Positions 2,555 through 29,996 of a stretch of DNA of 64,000 nucleotides are shown one piece after another. Below the pieces are notes generated by a model. It was not told the DNA's origin. It worked only from the letters and a program-made list of their open reading frames with translations, and ran no database searches. Origin of the DNA: Escherichia phage vB-Eco-KMB43. The translations under genes and the position numbers were made by a program. The stretch is from sequence record OR525698.1; one strand, written 5' to 3'. Position 1 is the first letter of the stretch. Every line of letters begins with the position of its first letter.

Positions 2555-4417
2555 TTACATGTGCTTAACGCGGTTTACCATCTCGGAGTGTTTCCCGTGG
2601 TTAAATGGACGCAGATCAACAGATCCAAGATATCCACTAACGCGACGGATAACATTCATCTTTTCCAGATTGTCATTGCCGCAATCAGGGCAAACAAAAC
2701 CAGACTCGGTCGCTCTCATTTCCTTATTAGATCCGCATACATGACATACATCAGAAGGAGTATTAACACCGAAGTAGTGCAATTTATCCATTGCATAGTC
2801 TACTACAGTTTCAAGACCTTTCAGGTTGTTTTTCATGTCTGGGAACTCAACATAAGAGATCATGCCACCGGACGCCAGCCAGTGATAATCTTTCTCAAAG
2901 TCGATTTTCTCAAACGGTGTGACTTTCCGGTCTACGTCAAGGTGGAATGAGTTGGTGTACCAGTCTTTATCGGTAGCACCCTTAACAATACCAAATTGCT
3001 CTCGGTCCAGTCGATTAAATCGATAGCAAAGGCTCTCGGCTGGAGTACCGTAAAGACTAAACCCAAGTCCGGTTTCGTCCTTCCATTTTTCAGTATAATG
3101 ACGCAAGATCTTAAGAATATGTTTACCGTATCGCTGCGCATCTTCCGAATCAAACGGATGAACACCAAACAGGACGCTCAATACCTCATGTAAACCAATA
3201 TATCCAAGAGAGATACTAGCGCGACCATCTTTCAACACTTCCAAAATTTCATCGTTTTGATGAATACGGAAAAACGCACCTTCGGTATACAGTACAGGAG
3301 CAACATTGGCTTTAGCACCTTTTAAAGCGTCTACGCGACTCATGAGCGCATCAAAGCAAATAGGCATACGATTAGCTAGCTCTTGTTCGAATAGCTCAAT
3401 TCTGCGCATTACAGACGCTTTACCAGCACGACGCGCGGCAATAAGGGCAATACGCGGAAGATTCAGAGTCACAACACCTAAGTTATTACGTCCGTCTAAT
3501 ACTTCCTCGCCTTTCTCATTATGCCACACACCCAGGAAGCTACGACAACCCATCGGGCTAACCGGAACACTAGATCCGGTGATACTACGGTTATTCTTCG
3601 CAGAGATATAATCAGGGTAAAGACGCTTACTAGAACATTCCAATGCAAGTTGCTTAATGTCGTAGTTCGGATCTTCCGGTTTAAGGTTTAATCCTTCTTC
3701 TAAGAACATCACCAGCTTAGGAAACACCGGAGTGATACCATCTTTACCTAAACCTTTAGTTCGAACGTTCAGGATCGCTTTCTGAATCAGTTTTTCTTCC
3801 CAGCTAGTCCCCATACCAAATGTTAAAGTCACAAAAGGTGTTTGACCGTTGGTGGAGAACAAAGTGTTGATTTCATATTCCAACGCTTGATACCCGTCTA
3901 GCGTTTCTTTTTCTGTCTTCTCTTGTGCATAGAGAGTATCCGCTTTGATTCCGTAGGTTTCGGCATCAGCAAGGTGTTTATGATATGTTTTCTCAACGTA
4001 TGGCGCTAAAACCTGATCGATGTTTGCAATTGTGGTCCCGCCATATTGATGACTTGCCACCTGTGCGATAATTTGAGCGGTTACAGCACAAGCAACGCCG
4101 ATTGATTTCGGACTTTCGATTTGTGCGCTACCCAATTTAAAACCATTCTCTAACATGTCTTTGAGGTTAACAAGACAGCAGTTAGTAAACGGCATAGCGG
4201 GTGCATAATCCATATCATGATAATGAATGTCACCGTCTACATGCGCTTTATAGATGTGCTCAGGTAACACGGTTTTAGCAATCTGTTTAGACACAGCACC
4301 AGCAATCAGATCTCGACGTGTCGGGAATGTTCGCGCGTCTTTGTTCGCGTTCTCTTTGCTTACTTCGTTTTCTTTACCCGTTGCGATCTCTGTAATGTCT
4401 TTGATTAGTTTTTCCAT
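2555..4417 (-). CDS. nrdD: anaerobic ribonucleoside-triphosphate reductase, class III
   Basis: 620 aa. C-terminal Zn-ribbon (CHVCG...CPDCG) and glycyl-radical motif RRVSGYLG. Uninterrupted, with no intron. Confidence 0.95.
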   Translation of the reverse strand: MEKLIKDITEIATGKENEVSKENANKDARTFPTRRDLIAGAVSKQIAKTVLPEHIYKAHVDGDIHYHDMDYAPAMPFTNCCLVNLKDMLENGFKLGSAQIESPKSIGVACAVTAQIIAQVASHQYGGTTIANIDQVLAPYVEKTYHKHLADAETYGIKADTLYAQEKTEKETLDGYQALEYEINTLFSTNGQTPFVTLTFGMGTSWEEKLIQKAILNVRTKGLGKDGITPVFPKLVMFLEEGLNLKPEDPNYDIKQLALECSSKRLYPDYISAKNNRSITGSSVPVSPMGCRSFLGVWHNEKGEEVLDGRNNLGVVTLNLPRIALIAARRAGKASVMRRIELFEQELANRMPICFDALMSRVDALKGAKANVAPVLYTEGAFFRIHQNDEILEVLKDGRASISLGYIGLHEVLSVLFGVHPFDSEDAQRYGKHILKILRHYTEKWKDETGLGFSLYGTPAESLCYRFNRLDREQFGIVKGATDKDWYTNSFHLDVDRKVTPFEKIDFEKDYHWLASGGMISYVEFPDMKNNLKGLETVVDYAMDKLHYFGVNTPSDVCHVCGSNKEMRATESGFVCPDCGNDNLEKMNVIRRVSGYLGSVDLRPFNHGKHSEMVNRVKHM

Positions 4418-16650: not shown

Positions 16651-17247
16651 TTATTTGGTAGTACCGTCAATAAAATGTTTACGACACACAGAAACATATT
16701 TATCCTCTGCACCAACTTCTATTTGAGCACCATCGCGAATAACATTACCATCTTTATCTACGCGAAGGACCATAGTCGCTTTCTTGCCACAATGACAAAT
16801 ACCCTTCATTTCGACCAGTTTATCAGCAAATGCCATTAATGCCGTAGATCCTTCAAATAGATTGCCCTGAAAGTCAGTGCGAAGGCCATAGCACAGTACA
16901 GGGATATTAGCATCATCAACAAGCGCACACAAGCCTAAAACATGCTCTTTAGTCATAAATTGGGCTTCGTCTACAAAAACTGCATCTGGACGCCATCGAT
17001 CCGGTCTACGCTTACCTAACGATTCACGATAAACCAAGTCGAAAAGATCATCCGATTTAGTGAAGGTGATCGCTGGAGCACTTAGGCCAATTCGGGAAAC
17101 GACTTCACTTTCTGAATCTCGATTATCAATCGCTGGCTTAAGAATTAATACTCGCATATCACGTTCGGTATAGTTATAAGCACTTTGTAACAGAGAAGTT
17201 GATTTGCCAGCGTTCATAGATGCATAGTAGAAATATAATTGCGCCAT
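16651..17247 (-). CDS. tk: thymidine kinase
   Basis: MAQLYFYY..MNAGKST.LLQS.YNY P-loop and the C-terminal Zn motif (CHCG...VCRKH) closely match recalled E. coli/T4 Tdk. Confidence 0.95.
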   Translation of the reverse strand: MAQLYFYYASMNAGKSTSLLQSAYNYTERDMRVLILKPAIDNRDSESEVVSRIGLSAPAITFTKSDDLFDLVYRESLGKRRPDRWRPDAVFVDEAQFMTKEHVLGLCALVDDANIPVLCYGLRTDFQGNLFEGSTALMAFADKLVEMKGICHCGKKATMVLRVDKDGNVIRDGAQIEVGAEDKYVSVCRKHFIDGTTK

Positions 17248-17540
17248 TAATTAATCTCCAAAAATCCAACAAGGCCTAAACCGATATAAGTCCAGATACC
17301 AATGAAAAAGATGTTAATGCTCATGGCAAGGATAAACCCTTTCAGAGTTTTGGGATACCCGACCCAATATTCCCGACCATCTTCTAACCGGATCAACTTA
17401 TTGCCTTGCGAGTCCATATCAACTACAACATGTTTATTTCGAGATTGCAATAGATATTGTTTTACAATCTCTACACCCGCCATAATAACAATAACGAAAA
17501 TAAAAGTCCACACAACAAGATTAATGATAGTCTCAAGCAT
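17247..17540 (-). CDS. hypothetical membrane protein (97 aa)
   Basis: Two long hydrophobic segments at the N- and C-termini. Overlaps the tk start by 1 nt. Confidence 0.6.
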   Translation of the reverse strand: MLETIINLVVWTFIFVIVIMAGVEIVKQYLLQSRNKHVVVDMDSQGNKLIRLEDGREYWVGYPKTLKGFILAMSINIFFIGIWTYIGLGLVGFLEIN

Positions 17541-17751
17541 TTTCTATCACCTCCACCCAATCAGGTGTTTCCTGAAAGACTCCTTCACCTTCATGATGGT
17601 CGCAACCTTTATTGCTGCAATACATCCACCAATCCCACATTCCCCACGGTAAACGCTGCATATCGTCGTTACAGCAAGTGAAGATAATAGGCCAACCACA
17701 TCTAACACATCGGCAGTTTTCCTTCATGTGTGCGGTATTAGGCTTCTTCAT
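17533..17751 (-). CDS. small Cys-rich protein (72 aa)
   Basis: ATGA overlap at 17751 after GGAGTCATCT. Contains CRCVRCG...CCNDD...CSNKGCDHHEG. Confidence 0.55.
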   Translation of the reverse strand: MKKPNTAHMKENCRCVRCGWPIIFTCCNDDMQRLPWGMWDWWMYCSNKGCDHHEGEGVFQETPDWVEVIENA

Positions 17752-17942
17752 AGATGACTCCAATATAATCGACATTTACATTTAGGGCAATGCGGTTCTT
17801 TAATATAATACCCGTCTGTCTTTGGAACACTAACAGGAGCGGTTTTTATATTGTATTCAGTGAAACAACGAAAACAAGTTACGTTTTCTACAGACTGACG
17901 TTTCACCCAATCACCGGAATATAGATCATTTTTATTTGTCAT
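17748..17942 (-). CDS. small zinc-ribbon-like protein (64 aa)
   Basis: CFRC...CPKC pairs. ATG 17942 overlaps the end of the macro-domain gene. Confidence 0.55.
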   Translation of the reverse strand: MTNKNDLYSGDWVKRQSVENVTCFRCFTEYNIKTAPVSVPKTDGYYIKEPHCPKCKCRLYWSHL

Positions 17943-18387
17943 ATTCAACCACCACAATGTTAATGTCTGGAGTAGCAATATTAATGATCTCTTCTACACA
18001 TTCCCACTCAAGGCCACCGATACCGCAACCGATTTTAGGAATATAGAAAGGCTGTATAGCACCTTCAAAAACATCATTGATAGTCTCAAATCCTTTCAGG
18101 ATAGCACCATATTCAGCATTTGGACCCGGTCGGAATTGGGTATAGAGATTCACCCCGCACCAGTTATAACCATTAACTTGATGCGTCCAGACACTAAACC
18201 CACCCAGCTTTTCTACCTTACCGCGAGAAGTTTGCTTGTCAATCTCTAACGCTTGCGGGAACTCTTTCGCGATCTTTGCAGCAATACCAGCGCCCATAGT
18301 ATGAAAACAATTACAACCATGAATTAAATGACCGTTTCCTTGTTTAAACAGGGCGATGAGATCGCCCTTTACAGTATCAATAATCAT
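17932..18387 (-). CDS. macro-domain protein (Poa1p/Appr-1''-pase-like ADP-ribose binding or hydrolase fold)
   Basis: GDL...HGCNCFHTMGAGIA...IPKIGCGIGGL matches the H.CNC....G.GIA macro-domain signature. Confidence 0.75.
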   Translation of the reverse strand: MIIDTVKGDLIALFKQGNGHLIHGCNCFHTMGAGIAAKIAKEFPQALEIDKQTSRGKVEKLGGFSVWTHQVNGYNWCGVNLYTQFRPGPNAEYGAILKGFETINDVFEGAIQPFYIPKIGCGIGGLEWECVEEIINIATPDINIVVVEYDK

Positions 18388-18402
18388 AATATAAACCTCT
18401 CA

Positions 18403-18762
18403 TTAGTCACGGGAAGACAACCCAGCCATAAAACGGCTTAACAGTGTGTCGCGATAAGCAAAGCATAATTGCTTATCAGGGGCAGTATCACAAAGGTTGC
18501 GTTTTGTTTTAGCAAAGCTGGCAATACTCAGATCCCATGCTCGATTTTTTCGTTTTTCGTCTCGACCTTGTTTGTATGCTTCGTCGAGTTCAAGTGCGAT
18601 AAAATCACTACACATGTTATCATCATCACAGAAAGTTTTAATGATCTTTTTGTTGATCTCAAATCCTTTGTATTCGAACTTTGGATAAGGGCGCTCATTA
18701 CTAGCAAGCGCACCAGCCGAGAACATCATAGCAATCATAGCAATTATTGTCAACTTTTTCAT
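18403..18762 (-). CDS. secreted or periplasmic hypothetical protein (119 aa)
   Basis: Signal peptide MKKLTIIAMIAMMFSAGALA/SN. Four Cys in the mature part. Confidence 0.6.
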   Translation of the reverse strand: MKKLTIIAMIAMMFSAGALASNERPYPKFEYKGFEINKKIIKTFCDDDNMCSDFIALELDEAYKQGRDEKRKNRAWDLSIASFAKTKRNLCDTAPDKQLCFAYRDTLLSRFMAGLSSRD

Positions 18763-18769
18763 ATATTCC

Positions 18770-19360
18770 TCAATAGCGTTTAGTCTTAAGAATGCCTTTA
18801 CTCTTTAGATGGTTAGCCTTTTTTAGTACGTCATCAGCATAACCTAATCCGGCTTTATAGTTCCATCCAGCATTGTAAGAAGCTAGCGCGAGTCGGATAT
18901 TACCGTTTCGAACATCCAGCCAGTATGCTAACTCATCCATCGCGTAGAATGCAGAAACCTCGCGATTCATGATAAAGTTGATAGTCTGGCGATCACTCAT
19001 TTTAACACCGCGCTTTGCATTTTTCGCTTTCACCGTTTTAAGGTAATTTTGAAATAATCCATAAGCATGATGATTTTTCTTTGGTGCTAAGTTTGCACCC
19101 GCGCTTGATTCTTGCCATGCGATACCCGCCAGGATGTGACCTAAACCCTTTCCGTTATAGCGAATATTCGGATGGTCCTTTTTCAACTTACCGCTTTTCT
19201 CGAATTGCTCGCCGTATTGATAGGCGAAATGTAAATTATCTAGTTGGTGTGCTGTAAAGTTGTCTATCGGCGCTTTTTTGATCGGTGCGCTAGTCGATGC
19301 GTGTGTAGCACCAACGGCTAGTGACAGACTCAATACTATCGCTTTTAGAACTTTTAACAT
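18770..19360 (-). CDS. secreted lytic transglycosylase-like protein (SLT domain)
   Basis: Signal peptide, then GIAWQESSAG (the catalytic E-S motif of SLT) and ASYNAG. Occupies the T4 vs.1 position next to regB. Confidence 0.7.
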   Translation of the reverse strand: MLKVLKAIVLSLSLAVGATHASTSAPIKKAPIDNFTAHQLDNLHFAYQYGEQFEKSGKLKKDHPNIRYNGKGLGHILAGIAWQESSAGANLAPKKNHHAYGLFQNYLKTVKAKNAKRGVKMSDRQTINFIMNREVSAFYAMDELAYWLDVRNGNIRLALASYNAGWNYKAGLGYADDVLKKANHLKSKGILKTKRY

Positions 19361-19394
19361 TAATTTCTCCTGTTTGGCTTAACTTTCTGATTCC

Positions 19395-19423
19395 ATAATA
19401 TAGCCCTATCACCAGAAAGTCAA
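19395..19423 (-). promoter_or_regulatory. sigma70-type promoter (weaker match)
   Basis: TTGACT-17-TATTAT. Inverted repeat CTTTCTG/CAGAAAG flanks the -10. Lies upstream of the SLT-like gene. Confidence 0.55.
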
Positions 19424-28160: not shown

Positions 28161-28354
28161 AGATCACAGAGCCATCTTAAAGCACCACATAAAGCGAGCA
28201 GAATACTAGGTATAAACGAGATCAAAACAAGTTTGCAAAAATCATCTAAGGTAATACCGGAATAGATACCAACTGTAACAACACCGATCATCAGACACAG
28301 AAAGAAAACAAATGCAATCAGAAACAAAGTATTGCTAAACAGTTTAGTGATCAT
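28157..28354 (-). CDS. small membrane protein (65 aa; 80 aa if ATG 28399 is used)
   Basis: Two TM helices. ATG 28354 follows GGGGTG, which gives an 11-nt rather than a 56-nt overlap with the upstream ORF. Confidence 0.5.
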   Translation of the reverse strand: MITKLFSNTLFLIAFVFFLCLMIGVVTVGIYSGITLDDFCKLVLISFIPSILLALCGALRWLCDL

Positions 28355-28547
28355 TAGACACCCCACGACGATCAATTTCAAAAACTTTTTTATCATCAAC
28401 GAAGCATGTCACAACTGCCTCGTTGACTTCCGCAAATTGTTGTGTTACCCACTTAAGGTCAGAGCGAAACAATGTTCTATTAATAACAAATGTTTTACCT
28501 TTCTTATCCATACCCATAAATTTTGCTTTAACCATATCCAATTCCAT
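28344..28547 (-). CDS. hypothetical protein (67 aa)
   Basis: ORF with SD AAGGTGATAAT. Confidence 0.55.
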   Translation of the reverse strand: MELDMVKAKFMGMDKKGKTFVINRTLFRSDLKWVTQQFAEVNEAVVTCFVDDKKVFEIDRRGVSNDH

Positions 28548-29268: not shown

Positions 29269-29733
29269 TTACAGTTTGGTCGTCCACTCCAGGTCTAGAT
29301 CTTCGACATACTCATGAGATCGGACAATCTCTAAATCGAACTCAAGGTCAGTGCCAAATTTACGCGCACCAACATCATAAGAAAGCGTGATATGCGGTAC
29401 ATATTCAGGATAATCCCACGTCGCACCTAAAGCAGTGCCGATATCGTGTCTGAATTGCATGTAGTCGCTTTCAAATGCCAGCACAAGCGCATTAGTACCG
29501 GATTGAGTTTCAAACACTTTCAGATGGCATAGAGAGCCTAAGAACTTCTCCCCTTCTTCTGGGATAAACGGAACATAGACACGAGAATATAAGATAGTGC
29601 TATGCAGTTTATCACGAGGAACGGCATTAGGCAGATCGTAGAACTCCTGCAATTTTTCAATGCGGTCTAGTGTATCCTCAGTGAATTTAACCGCCGCATA
29701 TGTACCTTTAACGGATTCTCTAAACGGGGTCAT
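29269..29733 (-). CDS. 57B: 2H phosphoesterase, T4 57B / Acb1-type (anti-CBASS cyclic-oligonucleotide phosphodiesterase)
   Basis: Two H-x-T/S-x motifs (HSTILYS, HITLSY), about 154 aa, positioned immediately after 57A as in T4. ATG 29733 follows GGAGG. Confidence 0.75.
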   Translation of the reverse strand: MTPFRESVKGTYAAVKFTEDTLDRIEKLQEFYDLPNAVPRDKLHSTILYSRVYVPFIPEEGEKFLGSLCHLKVFETQSGTNALVLAFESDYMQFRHDIGTALGATWDYPEYVPHITLSYDVGARKFGTDLEFDLEIVRSHEYVEDLDLEWTTKL

Positions 29734-29735
29734 AA

Positions 29736-29996
29736 TCAAGCCTCCGTGATCAGTTCTACTTCCTCTTCTGCTTCTTCTGCGGCTTCGTCTTTAGGGAGAA
29801 GTGCTTTCACTTCTTCGACGATAGCATCAAGGGAAACAGTCCCGTTTTCGTCTGGCTGAATACCCAGAATGCGTACCAGTTCCATCAATACACGCTCACG
29901 ATCTTTCAGTTGGCCTTCTAAGAATGCGGCCTTTTCTTGAGTGTCAAACAGACGTACTTTCAGGACATTAATCATTTGTTCATGCTGATTGGACAT
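29736..29996 (-). CDS. 57A: tail-fibre assembly chaperone gp57A
   Basis: Helical protein with an acidic C-terminus. L...L..R..DTQ..AA.L...IVE.VK.L resembles recalled T4 gp57A. Sits upstream of 57B and downstream of gene 1. Confidence 0.8.
   Translation of the reverse strand: MSNQHEQMINVLKVRLFDTQEKAAFLEGQLKDRERVLMELVRILGIQPDENGTVSLDAIVEEVKALLPKDEAAEEAEEEVELITEA

What the first reader, a model, noticed from the sequence alone, without database searches (positions are those of the whole stretch)
17932..18387. Phage macro-domain protein flanked by two small Cys-rich proteins: candidate ADP-ribosylation or ADPR-signal antagonist
The H-G-C-N-C-x-x-x-M-G-A-G-I-A and G-C-G-I-G-G motifs are characteristic of Poa1p/Appr-1''-pase-type macro domains.

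In a phage, such an enzyme could do one of three things:
- reverse host defensive ADP-ribosylation (for example, DarT-type DNA modification);
- degrade ADP-ribose-derived immune signals;
- balance the phage's own Alt/Mod-type ADP-ribosyltransferases.

Its 3' end overlaps a 64-aa zinc-ribbon-like ORF (17748..17942). That ORF is coupled by ATGA to a 72-aa Cys/His/Trp-rich ORF (17533..17751). This suggests a three-gene unit.
Basis: partly seen in the sequence, partly recalled or inferred. Interest (0 to 1): 0.5.

Follow-up and report, generated by a model that had tools for sequence, protein, structure and literature searches.

The report
Phage macrodomain that likely undoes DarT damage
This gene is the RB49/JSE-type phage copy of phage T4 tk.4 (AdfM), a small enzyme that most likely strips ADP-ribose marks which the bacterial DarTG2 defence puts on phage DNA, so it is a real but already explained counter-defence gene, and the two small zinc-binding genes next to it are not a required part of it.

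Summary
The ORF at 17932..18387 (- strand, 151 aa) is real, and so are the quoted motifs and the gene overlaps.

**What the window is.** It comes from a Krischvirus, a T4-like E. coli phage. It is 99.3% identical to phage JSE over window 17200-19400.

**What the gene is.**
- It is the positional and sequence ortholog of T4 tk.4: 44% identity over the full length, E 9e-45, between vs and tk.
- A 2025 preprint showed that T4 tk.4 (renamed adfM) is the single gene T4 needs to resist DarTG2.
- The AlphaFold model is very confident (pLDDT 97.5). It matches TARG1, Poa1p and DarG macrodomains.
- PADLOC and NCBIfam DarG profiles match only its macrodomain part.
- The family has Gln (85 of 86 sequences) where DarG, TARG1 and PhiKZ AdfM have the catalytic Lys. 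SCO6735, a proven thymidine-ADP-ribose DNA glycohydrolase, also has Gln there.

**Most likely function.** It hydrolyses DarT2-made ADP-ribosyl-thymidine on phage DNA.

**The "three-gene unit" does not hold.**
- Seven genes in a row are tightly packed, not three.
- T4 has unrelated small genes at those positions.
- Most phages with this macrodomain lack both zinc proteins.
- One oddity remains: the macro gene and the 64-aa zinc-ribbon gene are shared as a pair with unrelated rV5-like phages.

**Verdict.** New member of a known kind; low interest.

The parts
17932..18387 (-). tk.4/adfM ortholog: 151-aa stand-alone macrodomain, the predicted ADP-ribosyl-DNA glycohydrolase
   Evidence: ORF and sequence. 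Pfam Macro. 44% identity to T4 Tk.4, E 9e-45. PADLOC DarG E 3.9e-14, macro part only. AF2 pLDDT 97.5. Foldseek matches TARG1, Poa1p and DarG.
18396..18401 (-). GAGAGG ribosome-binding site, 8 nt upstream of the macro ATG, in the 15-nt gap after vs
   Evidence: Read directly from the sequence.
18280..18321 (-). Codons 23-36, HGCNCFHTMGAGIA: the first ADP-ribose-binding loop. Asn26 is invariant and His23 nearly invariant.
   Evidence: N26 in 86/86 and H23 in 83/86 family members. Aligns with Poa1p H23...S30. Asn26 aligns with the Asn in SCO6735 'AHVCND'; I assign this by motif position to the Asn27 that the SCO6735 paper shows is needed for activity.
18136..18150 (-). Codons 80-84, N-L-Y-T-Q. 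Gln84 occupies the position of the catalytic Lys of TARG1 (K84) and DarG (K80), and of Gln85 in SCO6735.
   Evidence: Q84 in 85/86 members, N80 and Y82 in 86/86. Alignments to Mtb DarG 'PTKK', TARG1 'ITKK', BT1257 and SCO6735 'NMIGQH'. PhiKZ AdfM K78 aligns with the same position.
18013..18039 (-). Codons 117-125, P-K-I-G-C-G-I-G-G: the second, diphosphate-binding glycine-rich loop. Gly124/Gly125 stand where TARG1 has Asp125.
   Evidence: P117, G120 and G122 in 86/86 members. Alignment to TARG1 'PRIGCGLDRLQW'.
17748..17942 (-). 64-aa four-Cys zinc-ribbon protein (Pfam Phage_zn_bind_2). It is a neighbour and is co-transferred with the macro gene in rV5-like phages, but it is not shown to belong to the function.
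   Evidence: Pfam E 1e-23. Invariant C23, C26, C52, C55. Adjacent to a macro gene only in Krischvirus and Vequintavirus. Other neighbours elsewhere.
17533..17751 (-). 72-aa Cys/His/Trp-rich protein (Pfam Phage_zn_bind). It is a neighbour and an optional occupant of the tk.4-tk gap in T4-like phages.
   Evidence: Pfam E 4e-34. Invariant C15, C18, C45, C50, H53. 773 of 785 records that carry it have it next to the macro gene; every listed record was a 160-180 kb T4-type phage. Absent from T4.
17247..17540 (-). 97-aa hydrophobic protein of unknown function (PHROG 16027), context only. It overlaps the 72-aa ORF by 8 nt and tk by 1 nt.
   Evidence: Found only in Krischvirus among the loci examined.
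18403..18762 (-). vs (valyl-tRNA synthetase modifier), the upstream synteny anchor
   Evidence: PHROG 1256, E 1.8e-33. JSE annotation.
16651..17247 (-). tk (thymidine kinase), the downstream synteny anchor
   Evidence: Pfam TK, E 8.7e-52. JSE and T4 annotation.

Best explanation
The gene is the Krischvirus ortholog of T4 tk.4, now called adfM (anti-DarT factor, macrodomain).

**Proposed mechanism.**
1. On infection, the host toxin DarT2 uses NAD+ to ADP-ribosylate thymidines in single-stranded phage DNA, which blocks replication.
2. The 151-aa macrodomain binds the ADP-ribose in its canonical cleft. The cleft is formed by the loops HGCNC..MGAGIA and PKIGCGIGG.
3. It hydrolyses the ribose-thymine bond, releasing ADP-ribose and restoring the base.
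4. Catalysis is most likely of the SCO6735 type. Asn26 positions Gln84, which holds the distal ribose for water attack. It is probably not the Lys-dependent chemistry of DarG and TARG1.
5. The protein lacks DarG's C-terminal DarT-binding domain, so it probably acts only enzymatically.

**Shown here.** Orthology and synteny with T4 tk.4, the macro fold, and the conserved active-site residues.

**Shown elsewhere.**
- T4 tk.4 is needed against DarTG2.
- The Gln-type macrodomain SCO6735 cleaves dT-ADP-ribose DNA.
- PhiKZ AdfM removes DarT2 marks in vitro.

**Inferred.** That this particular protein has the same activity and the same role.
For: **Orthology.**
- 44% identity over 151/155 residues to T4 Tk.4, E 9e-45.
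- Same position between vs and tk in T4, JSE and the window.

**Function of the ortholog.**
- tk.4 was the single significant hit of a T4 transposon screen on a DarTG2 host, and a clean knockout sensitised T4.
- T4 lacking adfA and adfN stays DarTG2-resistant, which had predicted a further factor.

**Family assignment.**
- PADLOC DarG E 3.9e-14 over profile positions 3-141 of 329. NCBIfam DarG also matches the macro part.
- PDB sequence hits include Mtb DarG, BT1257, SCO6735, TARG1 and Poa1p.
- AF2 pLDDT 97.5, pTM 0.92. Foldseek: TARG1 at TM 0.78-0.84, DarG at 0.76-0.78.

**Active site.**
- N26 in 86/86 and Q84 in 85/86 family members.
- Q84 aligns with SCO6735 Gln85. Mutating Gln85 abolishes dT-ADPr DNA hydrolysis, and SCO6735 rescues cells from DarT.

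**Related phage protein.** PhiKZ AdfM removes DarT2 ADP-ribose from DNA in vitro.
Against: - No experiment exists on any Krischvirus protein. No paper in the searched library links DarTG to RB49, JSE or Krischvirus.
- The T4 result is a preprint, and its mechanism (enzymatic removal) is inferred there, not assayed.
- Identity to T4 Tk.4 is only 44%. The allele is closer to rV5-like phage macrodomains, whose function is untested.
- The catalytic Lys of DarG is absent. By sequence alignment, the protein also lacks the 5-residue-longer loop that follows the Gln in SCO6735. Activity on DNA is therefore not guaranteed.
- SCO6735 and TARG1 also act on proteins, so other substrates are possible.
Confidence: 0.72

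Rival explanations
1. It is a small-molecule ADP-ribose metabolite hydrolase: an ADP-ribose-1''-phosphate phosphatase or O-acetyl-ADP-ribose deacetylase, as in yeast Poa1p. This is the database label 'phosphatase / A1pp motif'. It would be clearing by-products rather than repairing DNA.
For: - The N-terminal motif aligns with Poa1p, including H23 and the S30 position.
- Poa1p structures are among the best fold matches, TM about 0.7.
- RefSeq and PHROG call the family 'phosphatase'.
Against: - The annotation is motif-based and has not been tested.
- The T4 ortholog has a specific DarTG2 phenotype.
- TARG1 and DarG match the fold better than Poa1p does: rmsd 2.6-2.9 against 4.4-5.1.
- Many macrodomains hydrolyse these metabolites as side activities (own knowledge).
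Confidence: 0.08
2. It is a protein de-ADP-ribosylase. It would either reverse ADP-ribosylation of phage or host proteins by host defence transferases, or tune the phage's own Alt/ModA/ModB-type enzymes.
For: - TARG1 is the best structural match.
- SCO6735, the closest active-site analogue, also removes ADP-ribose from auto-modified PARP1.
Against: - TARG1's Lys84/Asp125 dyad is replaced by Gln84 and Gly124/Gly125.
- T4 Alt, ModA and ModB are arginine-specific, and characterised macrodomains do not cleave Arg-ADP-ribose (own knowledge, not tested here).
- I did not check whether this phage encodes Alt or Mod.
- The T4 ortholog was non-essential except on DarTG2.
Confidence: 0.08
3. It degrades or sequesters ADP-ribose-derived immune signals, such as Thoeris gcADPR or His-ADPR.
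For: Only the general ability of macrodomains to bind ADP-ribose. The window also carries another signal-degrading counter-defence gene, Acb1.
Against: - No macrodomain is known to do this (own knowledge).
- The nearest characterised relatives all cleave ADP-ribose from macromolecules.
- No supporting genomic context was found.
Confidence: 0.02
4. The macro gene and the two zinc-binding genes act together as a three-gene functional unit. For example, the small proteins could bind DarT2, or target or regulate the macrodomain.
For: - The genes are translationally coupled by overlaps of 11 nt and 4 nt.
- The macro gene and the 64-aa gene are shared as a pair with unrelated rV5-like phages: 65% and 74% DNA identity confined to the two ORFs.
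- 773 of 785 phage records with the 72-aa family have it beside the macro gene.
- Small DarT-binding anti-DarT proteins do exist, e.g. ICP1 AdfB, 77 aa.
Against: - T4 lacks both families, and tk.4 alone was the hit.
- Of the 20 T4-like IMG/VR loci with tk, 13 lack the 72-aa gene, including close relatives of carriers.
- The 64-aa family follows an Acb1-like gene, an HD-domain gene or unknown genes in other phages.
- One rV5-like contig has the macro gene without it.
- Neither small protein hits a DarG or any other PADLOC/NCBIfam profile.
- The same tight packing extends over seven genes.
Confidence: 0.07

Closest known systems
Phage T4 Tk.4 = AdfM (anti-DarT factor macrodomain; HIDEN-SEQ preprint, bioRxiv 10.1101/2025.11.20.689424)
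   Same: - Full-length homolog: 44% identity, E 9e-45.
- Same length class (151 vs 155 aa) and same locus between vs and tk.
- Same motifs, including NLYTQ with Gln at the catalytic-Lys position.
   Different: - It is a diverged allele.
- The downstream small genes differ: T4 has DUF7202 and two DUF7438 proteins, whereas here there are two zinc-binding families and a membrane protein.
- Its function has not been tested in any Krischvirus.
PhiKZ gp104 AdfM (Morgan et al., Cell Rep 2026, PMC13309987)
   Same: A stand-alone phage macrodomain that counters DarTG2. It removes DarT2 ADP-ribose from DNA in vitro, and it has the conserved Asn (N23).
   Different: - Only 26% identity, 38 bits against the family profile.
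- It is Lys-type (K78), like DarG.
- It is imported into the phage nucleus.
DarG2 antitoxin macrodomain (Mtb 5M3I, T. aquaticus 5M31/5M3E)
   Same: - Same fold, TM 0.76-0.78.
- It is the best single-sequence PDB hit, E 4.8e-8.
- The PADLOC and NCBIfam DarG profiles match.
   Different: - No C-terminal DarT-binding domain.
- No adjacent darT gene.
- The catalytic Lys80 is replaced by Gln.
- The NCBIfam score of 48 is far below the cut-off of 250.
Streptomyces coelicolor SCO6735 (5E3B) and Bacteroides BT1257 (2FG1): stand-alone Gln-type ALC1-like macrodomains
   Same: - Stand-alone proteins of about 150-180 aa.
- Gln at the catalytic position and a conserved Asn.
- SCO6735 cleaves dT-ADPr DNA and protects against DarT.
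- A cellular relative of the phage family is likewise stand-alone, with no DarT nearby.
   Different: - Only about 25% identity.
- By sequence alignment, the phage protein lacks the 5-residue-longer loop after the Gln.
- The motif is YTQ rather than IGQ.
Human TARG1/OARD1 (4J5R/4J5S) and yeast Poa1p (6LFR)
   Same: - They are the best fold matches: TARG1 TM 0.78-0.84, Poa1p about 0.7.
- The Poa1p N-terminal motif aligns residue for residue.
   Different: - The TARG1 Lys84/Asp125 dyad is absent.
- They are eukaryotic protein or metabolite hydrolases, not phage counter-defence proteins.
AdfN (T4 30.3, NADAR; Johannesman et al. 2025, PMC11825919)
   Same: The same strategy: an orphan, antitoxin-like ADP-ribosylglycohydrolase carried by T4-like phages to undo DarT marks on DNA.
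   Different: It has an unrelated fold (NADAR). It is specific for guanine marks made by DarT1 and is inactive against DarTG2.

Membership tests
T4 Tk.4 / AdfM family (T4-type) | Full-length sequence homology to T4 Tk.4 | tested here: met
   BLASTP: 44% identity, 65% positives, E 9e-45 over residues 1-150.
T4 Tk.4 / AdfM family (T4-type) | Conserved position between vs and tk in a T4-like genome | tested here: met
   Same gene order vs.1-vs-tk.4-...-tk in T4, JSE and the window. The same order is seen in 20 IMG/VR T4-like loci.
T4 Tk.4 / AdfM family (T4-type) | Macro fold with intact ADP-ribose-binding loops | tested here: met
   AF2 pLDDT 97.5. Foldseek probability 1.00 to ADP-ribose-bound TARG1, Poa1p and DarG. 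Invariant G24, N26, G34, G120 and G122.
T4 Tk.4 / AdfM family (T4-type) | Confers resistance to DarTG2 | not testable with these tools
   Known only for T4. It needs a phage knockout and plaque assays.
DarG2 antitoxin (type II TA, NCBIfam NF048014) | N-terminal macrodomain | tested here: met
   PADLOC DarG E 3.9e-14, profile positions 3-141 of 329.
DarG2 antitoxin (type II TA, NCBIfam NF048014) | C-terminal DarT-binding domain (full-length protein of about 330-350 aa) | tested here: not met
   The protein is 151 aa. Only the first 141 profile positions match, and the score of 48.4 is below the curated cut-off of 250.
DarG2 antitoxin (type II TA, NCBIfam NF048014) | Adjacent darT toxin gene | tested here: not met
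   The neighbours are vs and small zinc-binding or membrane proteins. The three downstream neighbours have no PADLOC hit.
DarG2 antitoxin (type II TA, NCBIfam NF048014) | Catalytic lysine (T. aquaticus K80) | tested here: not met
   The aligned residue is Gln84, in 85 of 86 family members.
SCO6735-type (Gln) subclass of ALC1-like macrodomains | Gln at the position of the TARG1/DarG catalytic Lys, plus a conserved Asn that positions it | tested here: met
   Q84 aligns with the Gln in SCO6735 'NMIGQH', and N26 with the Asn in 'AHVCND'. Their roles are described in PMC9411070.
SCO6735-type (Gln) subclass of ALC1-like macrodomains | Mobile loop five residues longer than in DarG/TARG1 | tested here: not met
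   The HMMER alignment puts a 5-residue gap in the phage protein directly after Gln84, opposite SCO6735 'GMKTG'. This rests on sequence alignment only. The identification of that segment as the mobile loop is my inference from the residues named.
TARG1 (terminal ADP-ribose glycohydrolase) | Lys84/Asp125 catalytic dyad | tested here: not met
   Gln84 and Gly124/Gly125 stand at the aligned positions.
Poa1p / ADP-ribose-1''-phosphate phosphatase | H-x-C-N-C ... G-x-G-I-A N-terminal motif, with His23 and residue 30 hydroxyl | tested here: met
   Alignment to 6LFU/6LFQ: LIHSCNCNGSWGGGIA against LIHGCNCFHTMGAGIA.
Poa1p / ADP-ribose-1''-phosphate phosphatase | ADPr-1''-phosphatase activity | not testable with these tools
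   This needs an enzyme assay.

The most novel reading that the evidence does not exclude
The macro gene and the 64-aa zinc-ribbon gene just downstream form a mobile two-gene counter-defence cassette. The cassette has moved between Krischvirus and rV5-like phages.

In this reading, the zinc ribbon (and perhaps the 72-aa zinc protein) supplies a second, non-enzymatic activity. One possibility is binding DarT2 in trans, in place of the missing DarG C-terminal domain, as the 77-aa AdfB of ICP1 does. Another is neutralising a different defence.

The zinc-ribbon family also sits directly after an Acb1-like enzyme in jumbo phages. That would fit a general helper of small counter-defence enzymes.
Probability: 0.07. 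Interest if true: 0.55.

Novelty: new member of a known kind. Interest (0 to 1): 0.22.

Why it matters
**Known part.** The gene adds the RB49/JSE group, and by similarity the large rV5-like group, to the phages predicted to carry a macrodomain answer to DarTG2. This is useful when choosing therapeutic E. coli phages against DarTG-bearing strains, but the principle is already published for T4 and PhiKZ.

**Two smaller points that are new here.**
- T4-type AdfM has Gln, not Lys, at the catalytic position. It resembles SCO6735 but has the short loop. This suggests that phages recruited a stand-alone DNA-repair-type macrodomain rather than a truncated DarG, and that two mechanistically different proteins now share the name AdfM.
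- The family is very common: 2784 of 50,697 phage records. Thymidine ADP-ribosylation therefore appears to be a widespread pressure on phages.

Tried and rejected
**A macro-zinc-ribbon fusion.** tblastn with the concatenated query gave one single-piece match covering both parts in Erwinia Kolesnikvirus. The 260-aa protein there has a C-terminal extension with no similarity to the zinc ribbon. It is not a fusion. About 49 of the 235 'adjacent' records are probably this artefact.

**T4 Tk.3, Tk.2 and Tk.1 as homologs of the small ORFs.** There is no similarity. They belong to DUF7202 and DUF7438.

**A conserved partner for the 64-aa zinc ribbon.** Its neighbours differ from phage to phage:
- macro
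- Acb1-like
- HD_4
- a weak P-loop match
- unknown proteins

**Solved structures for the two small proteins.** Only non-significant hits were found: PSV ORF126 at E 0.59 and Crl at E 0.24.

**Large protein database search with the 64-aa protein.** It returned a single hit, so no alignment-based structure prediction was attempted. The second structure job and the last homology search were left unused because the result would not change the verdict.

**Promoters and terminators.** Promoter-like and terminator-like sites are not more frequent than in shuffles: 20 against 16.6, and 4 against 2.9. No transcription unit can be defined from consensus scans.

**Other searches that found nothing.**
- No tRNA or Rfam family in the window.
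- No literature on DarTG with RB49 or Krischvirus, and none on the two Pfam zinc families.

**Not checked.**
- Whether this phage encodes Alt/ModA/ModB, AdfA or AdfN.
Full report
**1. The observation**

The 456-nt ORF at 17932..18387 on the - strand exists. It starts with ATG, preceded by GAGAGG 8 nt upstream, and encodes 151 aa. Both quoted motifs are there: HGCNCFHTMGAGIA at residues 23-36 and GCGIGG at residues 120-125.

The overlaps are also as described. The stop codon overlaps the start of a 64-aa ORF (17748..17942) by 11 nt. That ORF overlaps a 72-aa ORF (17533..17751) by ATGA.

One qualification applies. The next gene, a 97-aa hydrophobic protein (17247..17540), overlaps by 8 nt, and thymidine kinase overlaps that by 1 nt. 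Upstream, vs and vs.1 are 15 and 7 nt away. So seven genes are packed head to tail, not three.

**2. Where the window comes from**

Window 17200-19400 is 99.3% identical to Escherichia phage JSE. It is 98-99% identical to Phi1, RB49 and about 55 other Krischvirus genomes, which are T4-like Straboviridae of E. coli. In those records the ORF is annotated 'tk.4; phosphatase; contains A1pp phosphatase motif'.

The order on the - strand is:
- vs.1 (SLT domain)
- vs
- tk.4
- the 64-aa ORF
- the 72-aa ORF
- the 97-aa ORF
- tk

**3. What the protein is**

Sequence profiles:
- Pfam Macro scores 28.7 bits against a cut-off of 22.
- PHROG 335 'phosphatase' gives E 1e-61.
- PADLOC's DarG profile gives E 3.9e-14, but only over profile positions 3-141 of 329.
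- NCBIfam's DarG equivalog gives 48 bits against a cut-off of 250. So this is the DarG-like macrodomain without the rest of DarG.

PDB sequence hits fall in one branch:
- M. tuberculosis DarG macrodomain (5M3I)
- BT1257
- SCO6735
- human TARG1
- yeast Poa1p

Structure. An AlphaFold2 model built on 86 homologs has mean pLDDT 97.5 and pTM 0.92. Foldseek ranks the matches as follows:
- TARG1 first, TM 0.78-0.84, rmsd 2.6-2.7
- then Poa1p
- then the DarG macrodomains, TM 0.76-0.78
- then BT1257

The N-terminal motif aligns residue for residue with Poa1p LIHSCNCNGSWGGGIA.

**4. Link to a known function**

T4 Tk.4 aligns over its whole length: 44% identity, 65% positives, E 9e-45. It sits in the same place, between vs and tk.

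The HIDEN-SEQ preprint (bioRxiv 10.1101/2025.11.20.689424) reports three things:
- tk.4 was the single significant hit when a T4 transposon library was grown on a DarTG2-expressing host.
- A clean knockout sensitised T4 to DarTG2.
- The authors renamed the gene adfM (anti-DarT factor macrodomain).

They infer enzymatic removal of ADP-ribose from DNA, but they do not assay it.

This fits earlier work. T4 lacking adfA and adfN remained DarTG2-resistant, which predicted another factor (PMC11825919).

Independently, PhiKZ gp104 was also named AdfM. It was shown in vitro to remove DarT2-made ADP-ribose from DNA and to protect PhiKZ (PMC13309987). The window protein is only 26% identical to PhiKZ gp104.

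**5. Active site**

In 86 family members:
- N26, G24, C27, M31, G34, A36, D50, N80, Y82, P117, G120 and G122 are invariant.
- Q84 is present in 85 (one has K).
- H23 is present in 83.

Gln84 aligns with the catalytic Lys of TARG1 (K84, 'ITKK') and DarG ('PTKK'), and with K78 of PhiKZ AdfM. It also aligns with the Gln of BT1257 and SCO6735 ('NMIGQH'). TARG1's Asp125 corresponds to Gly. T4 Tk.4 has the same NLYTQ motif.

For SCO6735 the literature shows (PMC9411070):
- Gln85 is essential.
- Asn27 positions it.
- The enzyme efficiently cleaves thymidine-linked ADP-ribose on DNA.
- It rescues cells from DarT.
- A water-mediated, Lys-independent mechanism is proposed.

So the T4-type AdfM family most likely works like SCO6735 rather than like DarG. 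One difference appears in the sequence alignment. The phage protein lacks the five extra residues that follow the Gln in SCO6735. I take these to be the 'mobile loop' credited with SCO6735's processivity, which is an inference.

A cellular relative in Pelagimonas stands alone among housekeeping genes, with no DarT nearby. This agrees with an origin from free-standing macrodomains rather than from a truncated DarG.

**6. The two Cys-rich neighbours**

Both belong to curated but uncharacterised Pfam families:
- The 64-aa protein matches Phage_zn_bind_2 (E 1e-23). CxxC...CPxC is invariant (C23, C26, C52, C55).
- The 72-aa protein matches Phage_zn_bind (E 4e-34). C15, C18, C45, C50 and H53 are invariant.

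They have no significant PDB, PADLOC or NCBIfam match.

They are not homologs of T4 Tk.3, Tk.2 or Tk.1, which are DUF7202 and DUF7438 proteins. Since T4 tk.4 alone was the DarTG2 hit, neither zinc protein is needed for the T4 function.

*Distribution.* The three genes differ widely in how many phage records carry them.

| Gene | Phage records |
|---|---|
| macro | 2784 |
| 64-aa protein | 233 |
| 72-aa protein | 785 |

Among 80 IMG/VR loci with a macro relative and 4-kb flanks:
- 7 carry the 72-aa gene. All 7 are T4-like, out of 20 T4-like loci, and near-identical phages differ in having it.
- 5 carry the 64-aa gene. One of these is rV5-like. In the other four, which are T4-like, it lies beyond tk.

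A concatenated-query tblastn shows the 72-aa gene lies next to the macro gene in 773 of its 785 records. Every listed record was a 160-180 kb T4-type phage, so shared ancestry and synteny explain the adjacency.

The 64-aa gene is next to a macro gene only in Krischvirus and in rV5-like Vequintavirus. Elsewhere its context differs:
- In Mimasvirus GAP32 and CBB it follows an Acb1-like phosphoesterase inside an NAD-salvage/Sir2/Nudix cluster.
- In Mydovirus KB57 it follows an HD-domain gene.
- In other phages it follows unknown genes.

An apparent macro-zinc fusion in Erwinia Kolesnikvirus was an alignment artefact.

*One real curiosity.* The Krischvirus macro allele is closer to the rV5-like one (67-70% aa) than to any other Straboviridae tk.4 (at most 52%). 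The 64-aa gene is likewise shared (74-83% aa). DNA similarity is confined to these two ORFs, and the spacer and flanks are unrelated. That looks like one horizontal transfer of a two-gene piece. It amounts to a single event, and one rV5-like contig has the macro gene without the zinc gene.

**7. Mechanism proposed**

I put confidence in this mechanism at about 0.7.
1. The gene is expressed as part of the tightly packed vs.1-to-tk gene string.
2. The macrodomain binds ADP-ribosyl-thymidine made by host DarT2 on single-stranded phage DNA.
3. It hydrolyses the ribose-base bond using the Asn26/Gln84 arrangement.
4. Replication can then proceed.

Orthology, fold and residues are shown here. The DarTG2 phenotype (T4) and the chemistry (SCO6735, PhiKZ AdfM) are shown elsewhere. 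Activity of this particular protein is inferred.

Rivals:
- Metabolite phosphatase or deacetylase, the old annotation.
- Protein de-ADP-ribosylation.
- Degradation of ADPR-derived signals.
- A true three-gene module.

None is excluded by experiment, but each has less support.

**8. Novelty and verdict**

The gene is an uncharacterised member of a family whose function was reported in 2025-2026.

Residual novelty is modest. It consists of the Gln-type active site of T4-type AdfM compared with the Lys-type of PhiKZ AdfM and DarG, and the macro plus zinc-ribbon pair shared with rV5-like phages.

Interest is low, about 0.2.

Noticed in passing
window 29269-29739 (-) and 28344-28547 (-): Two other known T4-type counter-defence genes lie about 10 kb away on the same strand: Acb1/57B (anti-CBASS, Pfam E 1.5e-51) and Dmd (Pfam E 8.7e-16), the latter known (own knowledge) as the antitoxin against RnlA/LsoA. 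This long early region is rich in anti-defence genes.
   Followed up: partly
window 2555-4417 (-): nrdD (anaerobic ribonucleotide reductase) is one intact 620-aa ORF here. In the 99%-identical phage JSE it is annotated as two pieces split by a homing endonuclease gene.
   Followed up: partly
window 18725-18753 (-): A near-consensus sigma-70-like promoter (TTGACA, 17 nt, TG-TATGAT; 11 of 12 positions) lies inside the first codons of vs, pointing towards tk.4. A 10-of-12 site lies at 19395-19423 in the regB-vs.1 gap. Overall, promoter-like sites are not enriched over shuffles.
   Followed up: no
L089 3515-5909 (Cronobacter phage GAP32) and L090 3471-5890 (Pectobacterium phage CBB): In these jumbo phages the 64-aa zinc-ribbon family sits between an Acb1-like 2H phosphoesterase and Sir2-like plus Nudix genes, next to NAMPT (and in GAP32 also NMNAT/ADP-ribose pyrophosphatase) genes. 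This looks like an NAD/ADP-ribose-centred counter-defence island.
   Followed up: partly
L080 4001-4783 and L093 2501-3283 (Erwinia Kolesnikvirus phages): The macro homolog is 260 aa. It has a C-terminal extension of about 110 aa that has no detectable similarity to the zinc ribbon (no alignment at E <= 100). I did not scan the extension against any family library.
   Followed up: partly
L003 3001-3904, L004, L085, L086 (rV5-like Vequintavirus) compared with window 17748-18387: The macro gene and the 64-aa zinc-ribbon gene are shared between Krischvirus and rV5-like phages at 65-76% DNA identity. The similarity is confined to the two ORFs, and the flanks are unrelated. This suggests horizontal transfer of the pair.
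   Followed up: yes
GenBank MG065646, MG065659, MG065690: Records labelled 'Campylobacter phage' carry a 64-aa zinc-ribbon gene at 78.1% identity to the query, the same value as the listed E. coli rV5-like phages, and two of the three have rV5-like genome sizes (137 and 143 kb; the third is 76 kb). They may be mislabelled or contaminant records.
   Followed up: no
L096 4001-4459 (Pelagimonas phthalicica chromosome): A cellular member of the same Gln-type macro family stands alone among housekeeping-type genes, with no DarT nearby.
   Followed up: partly
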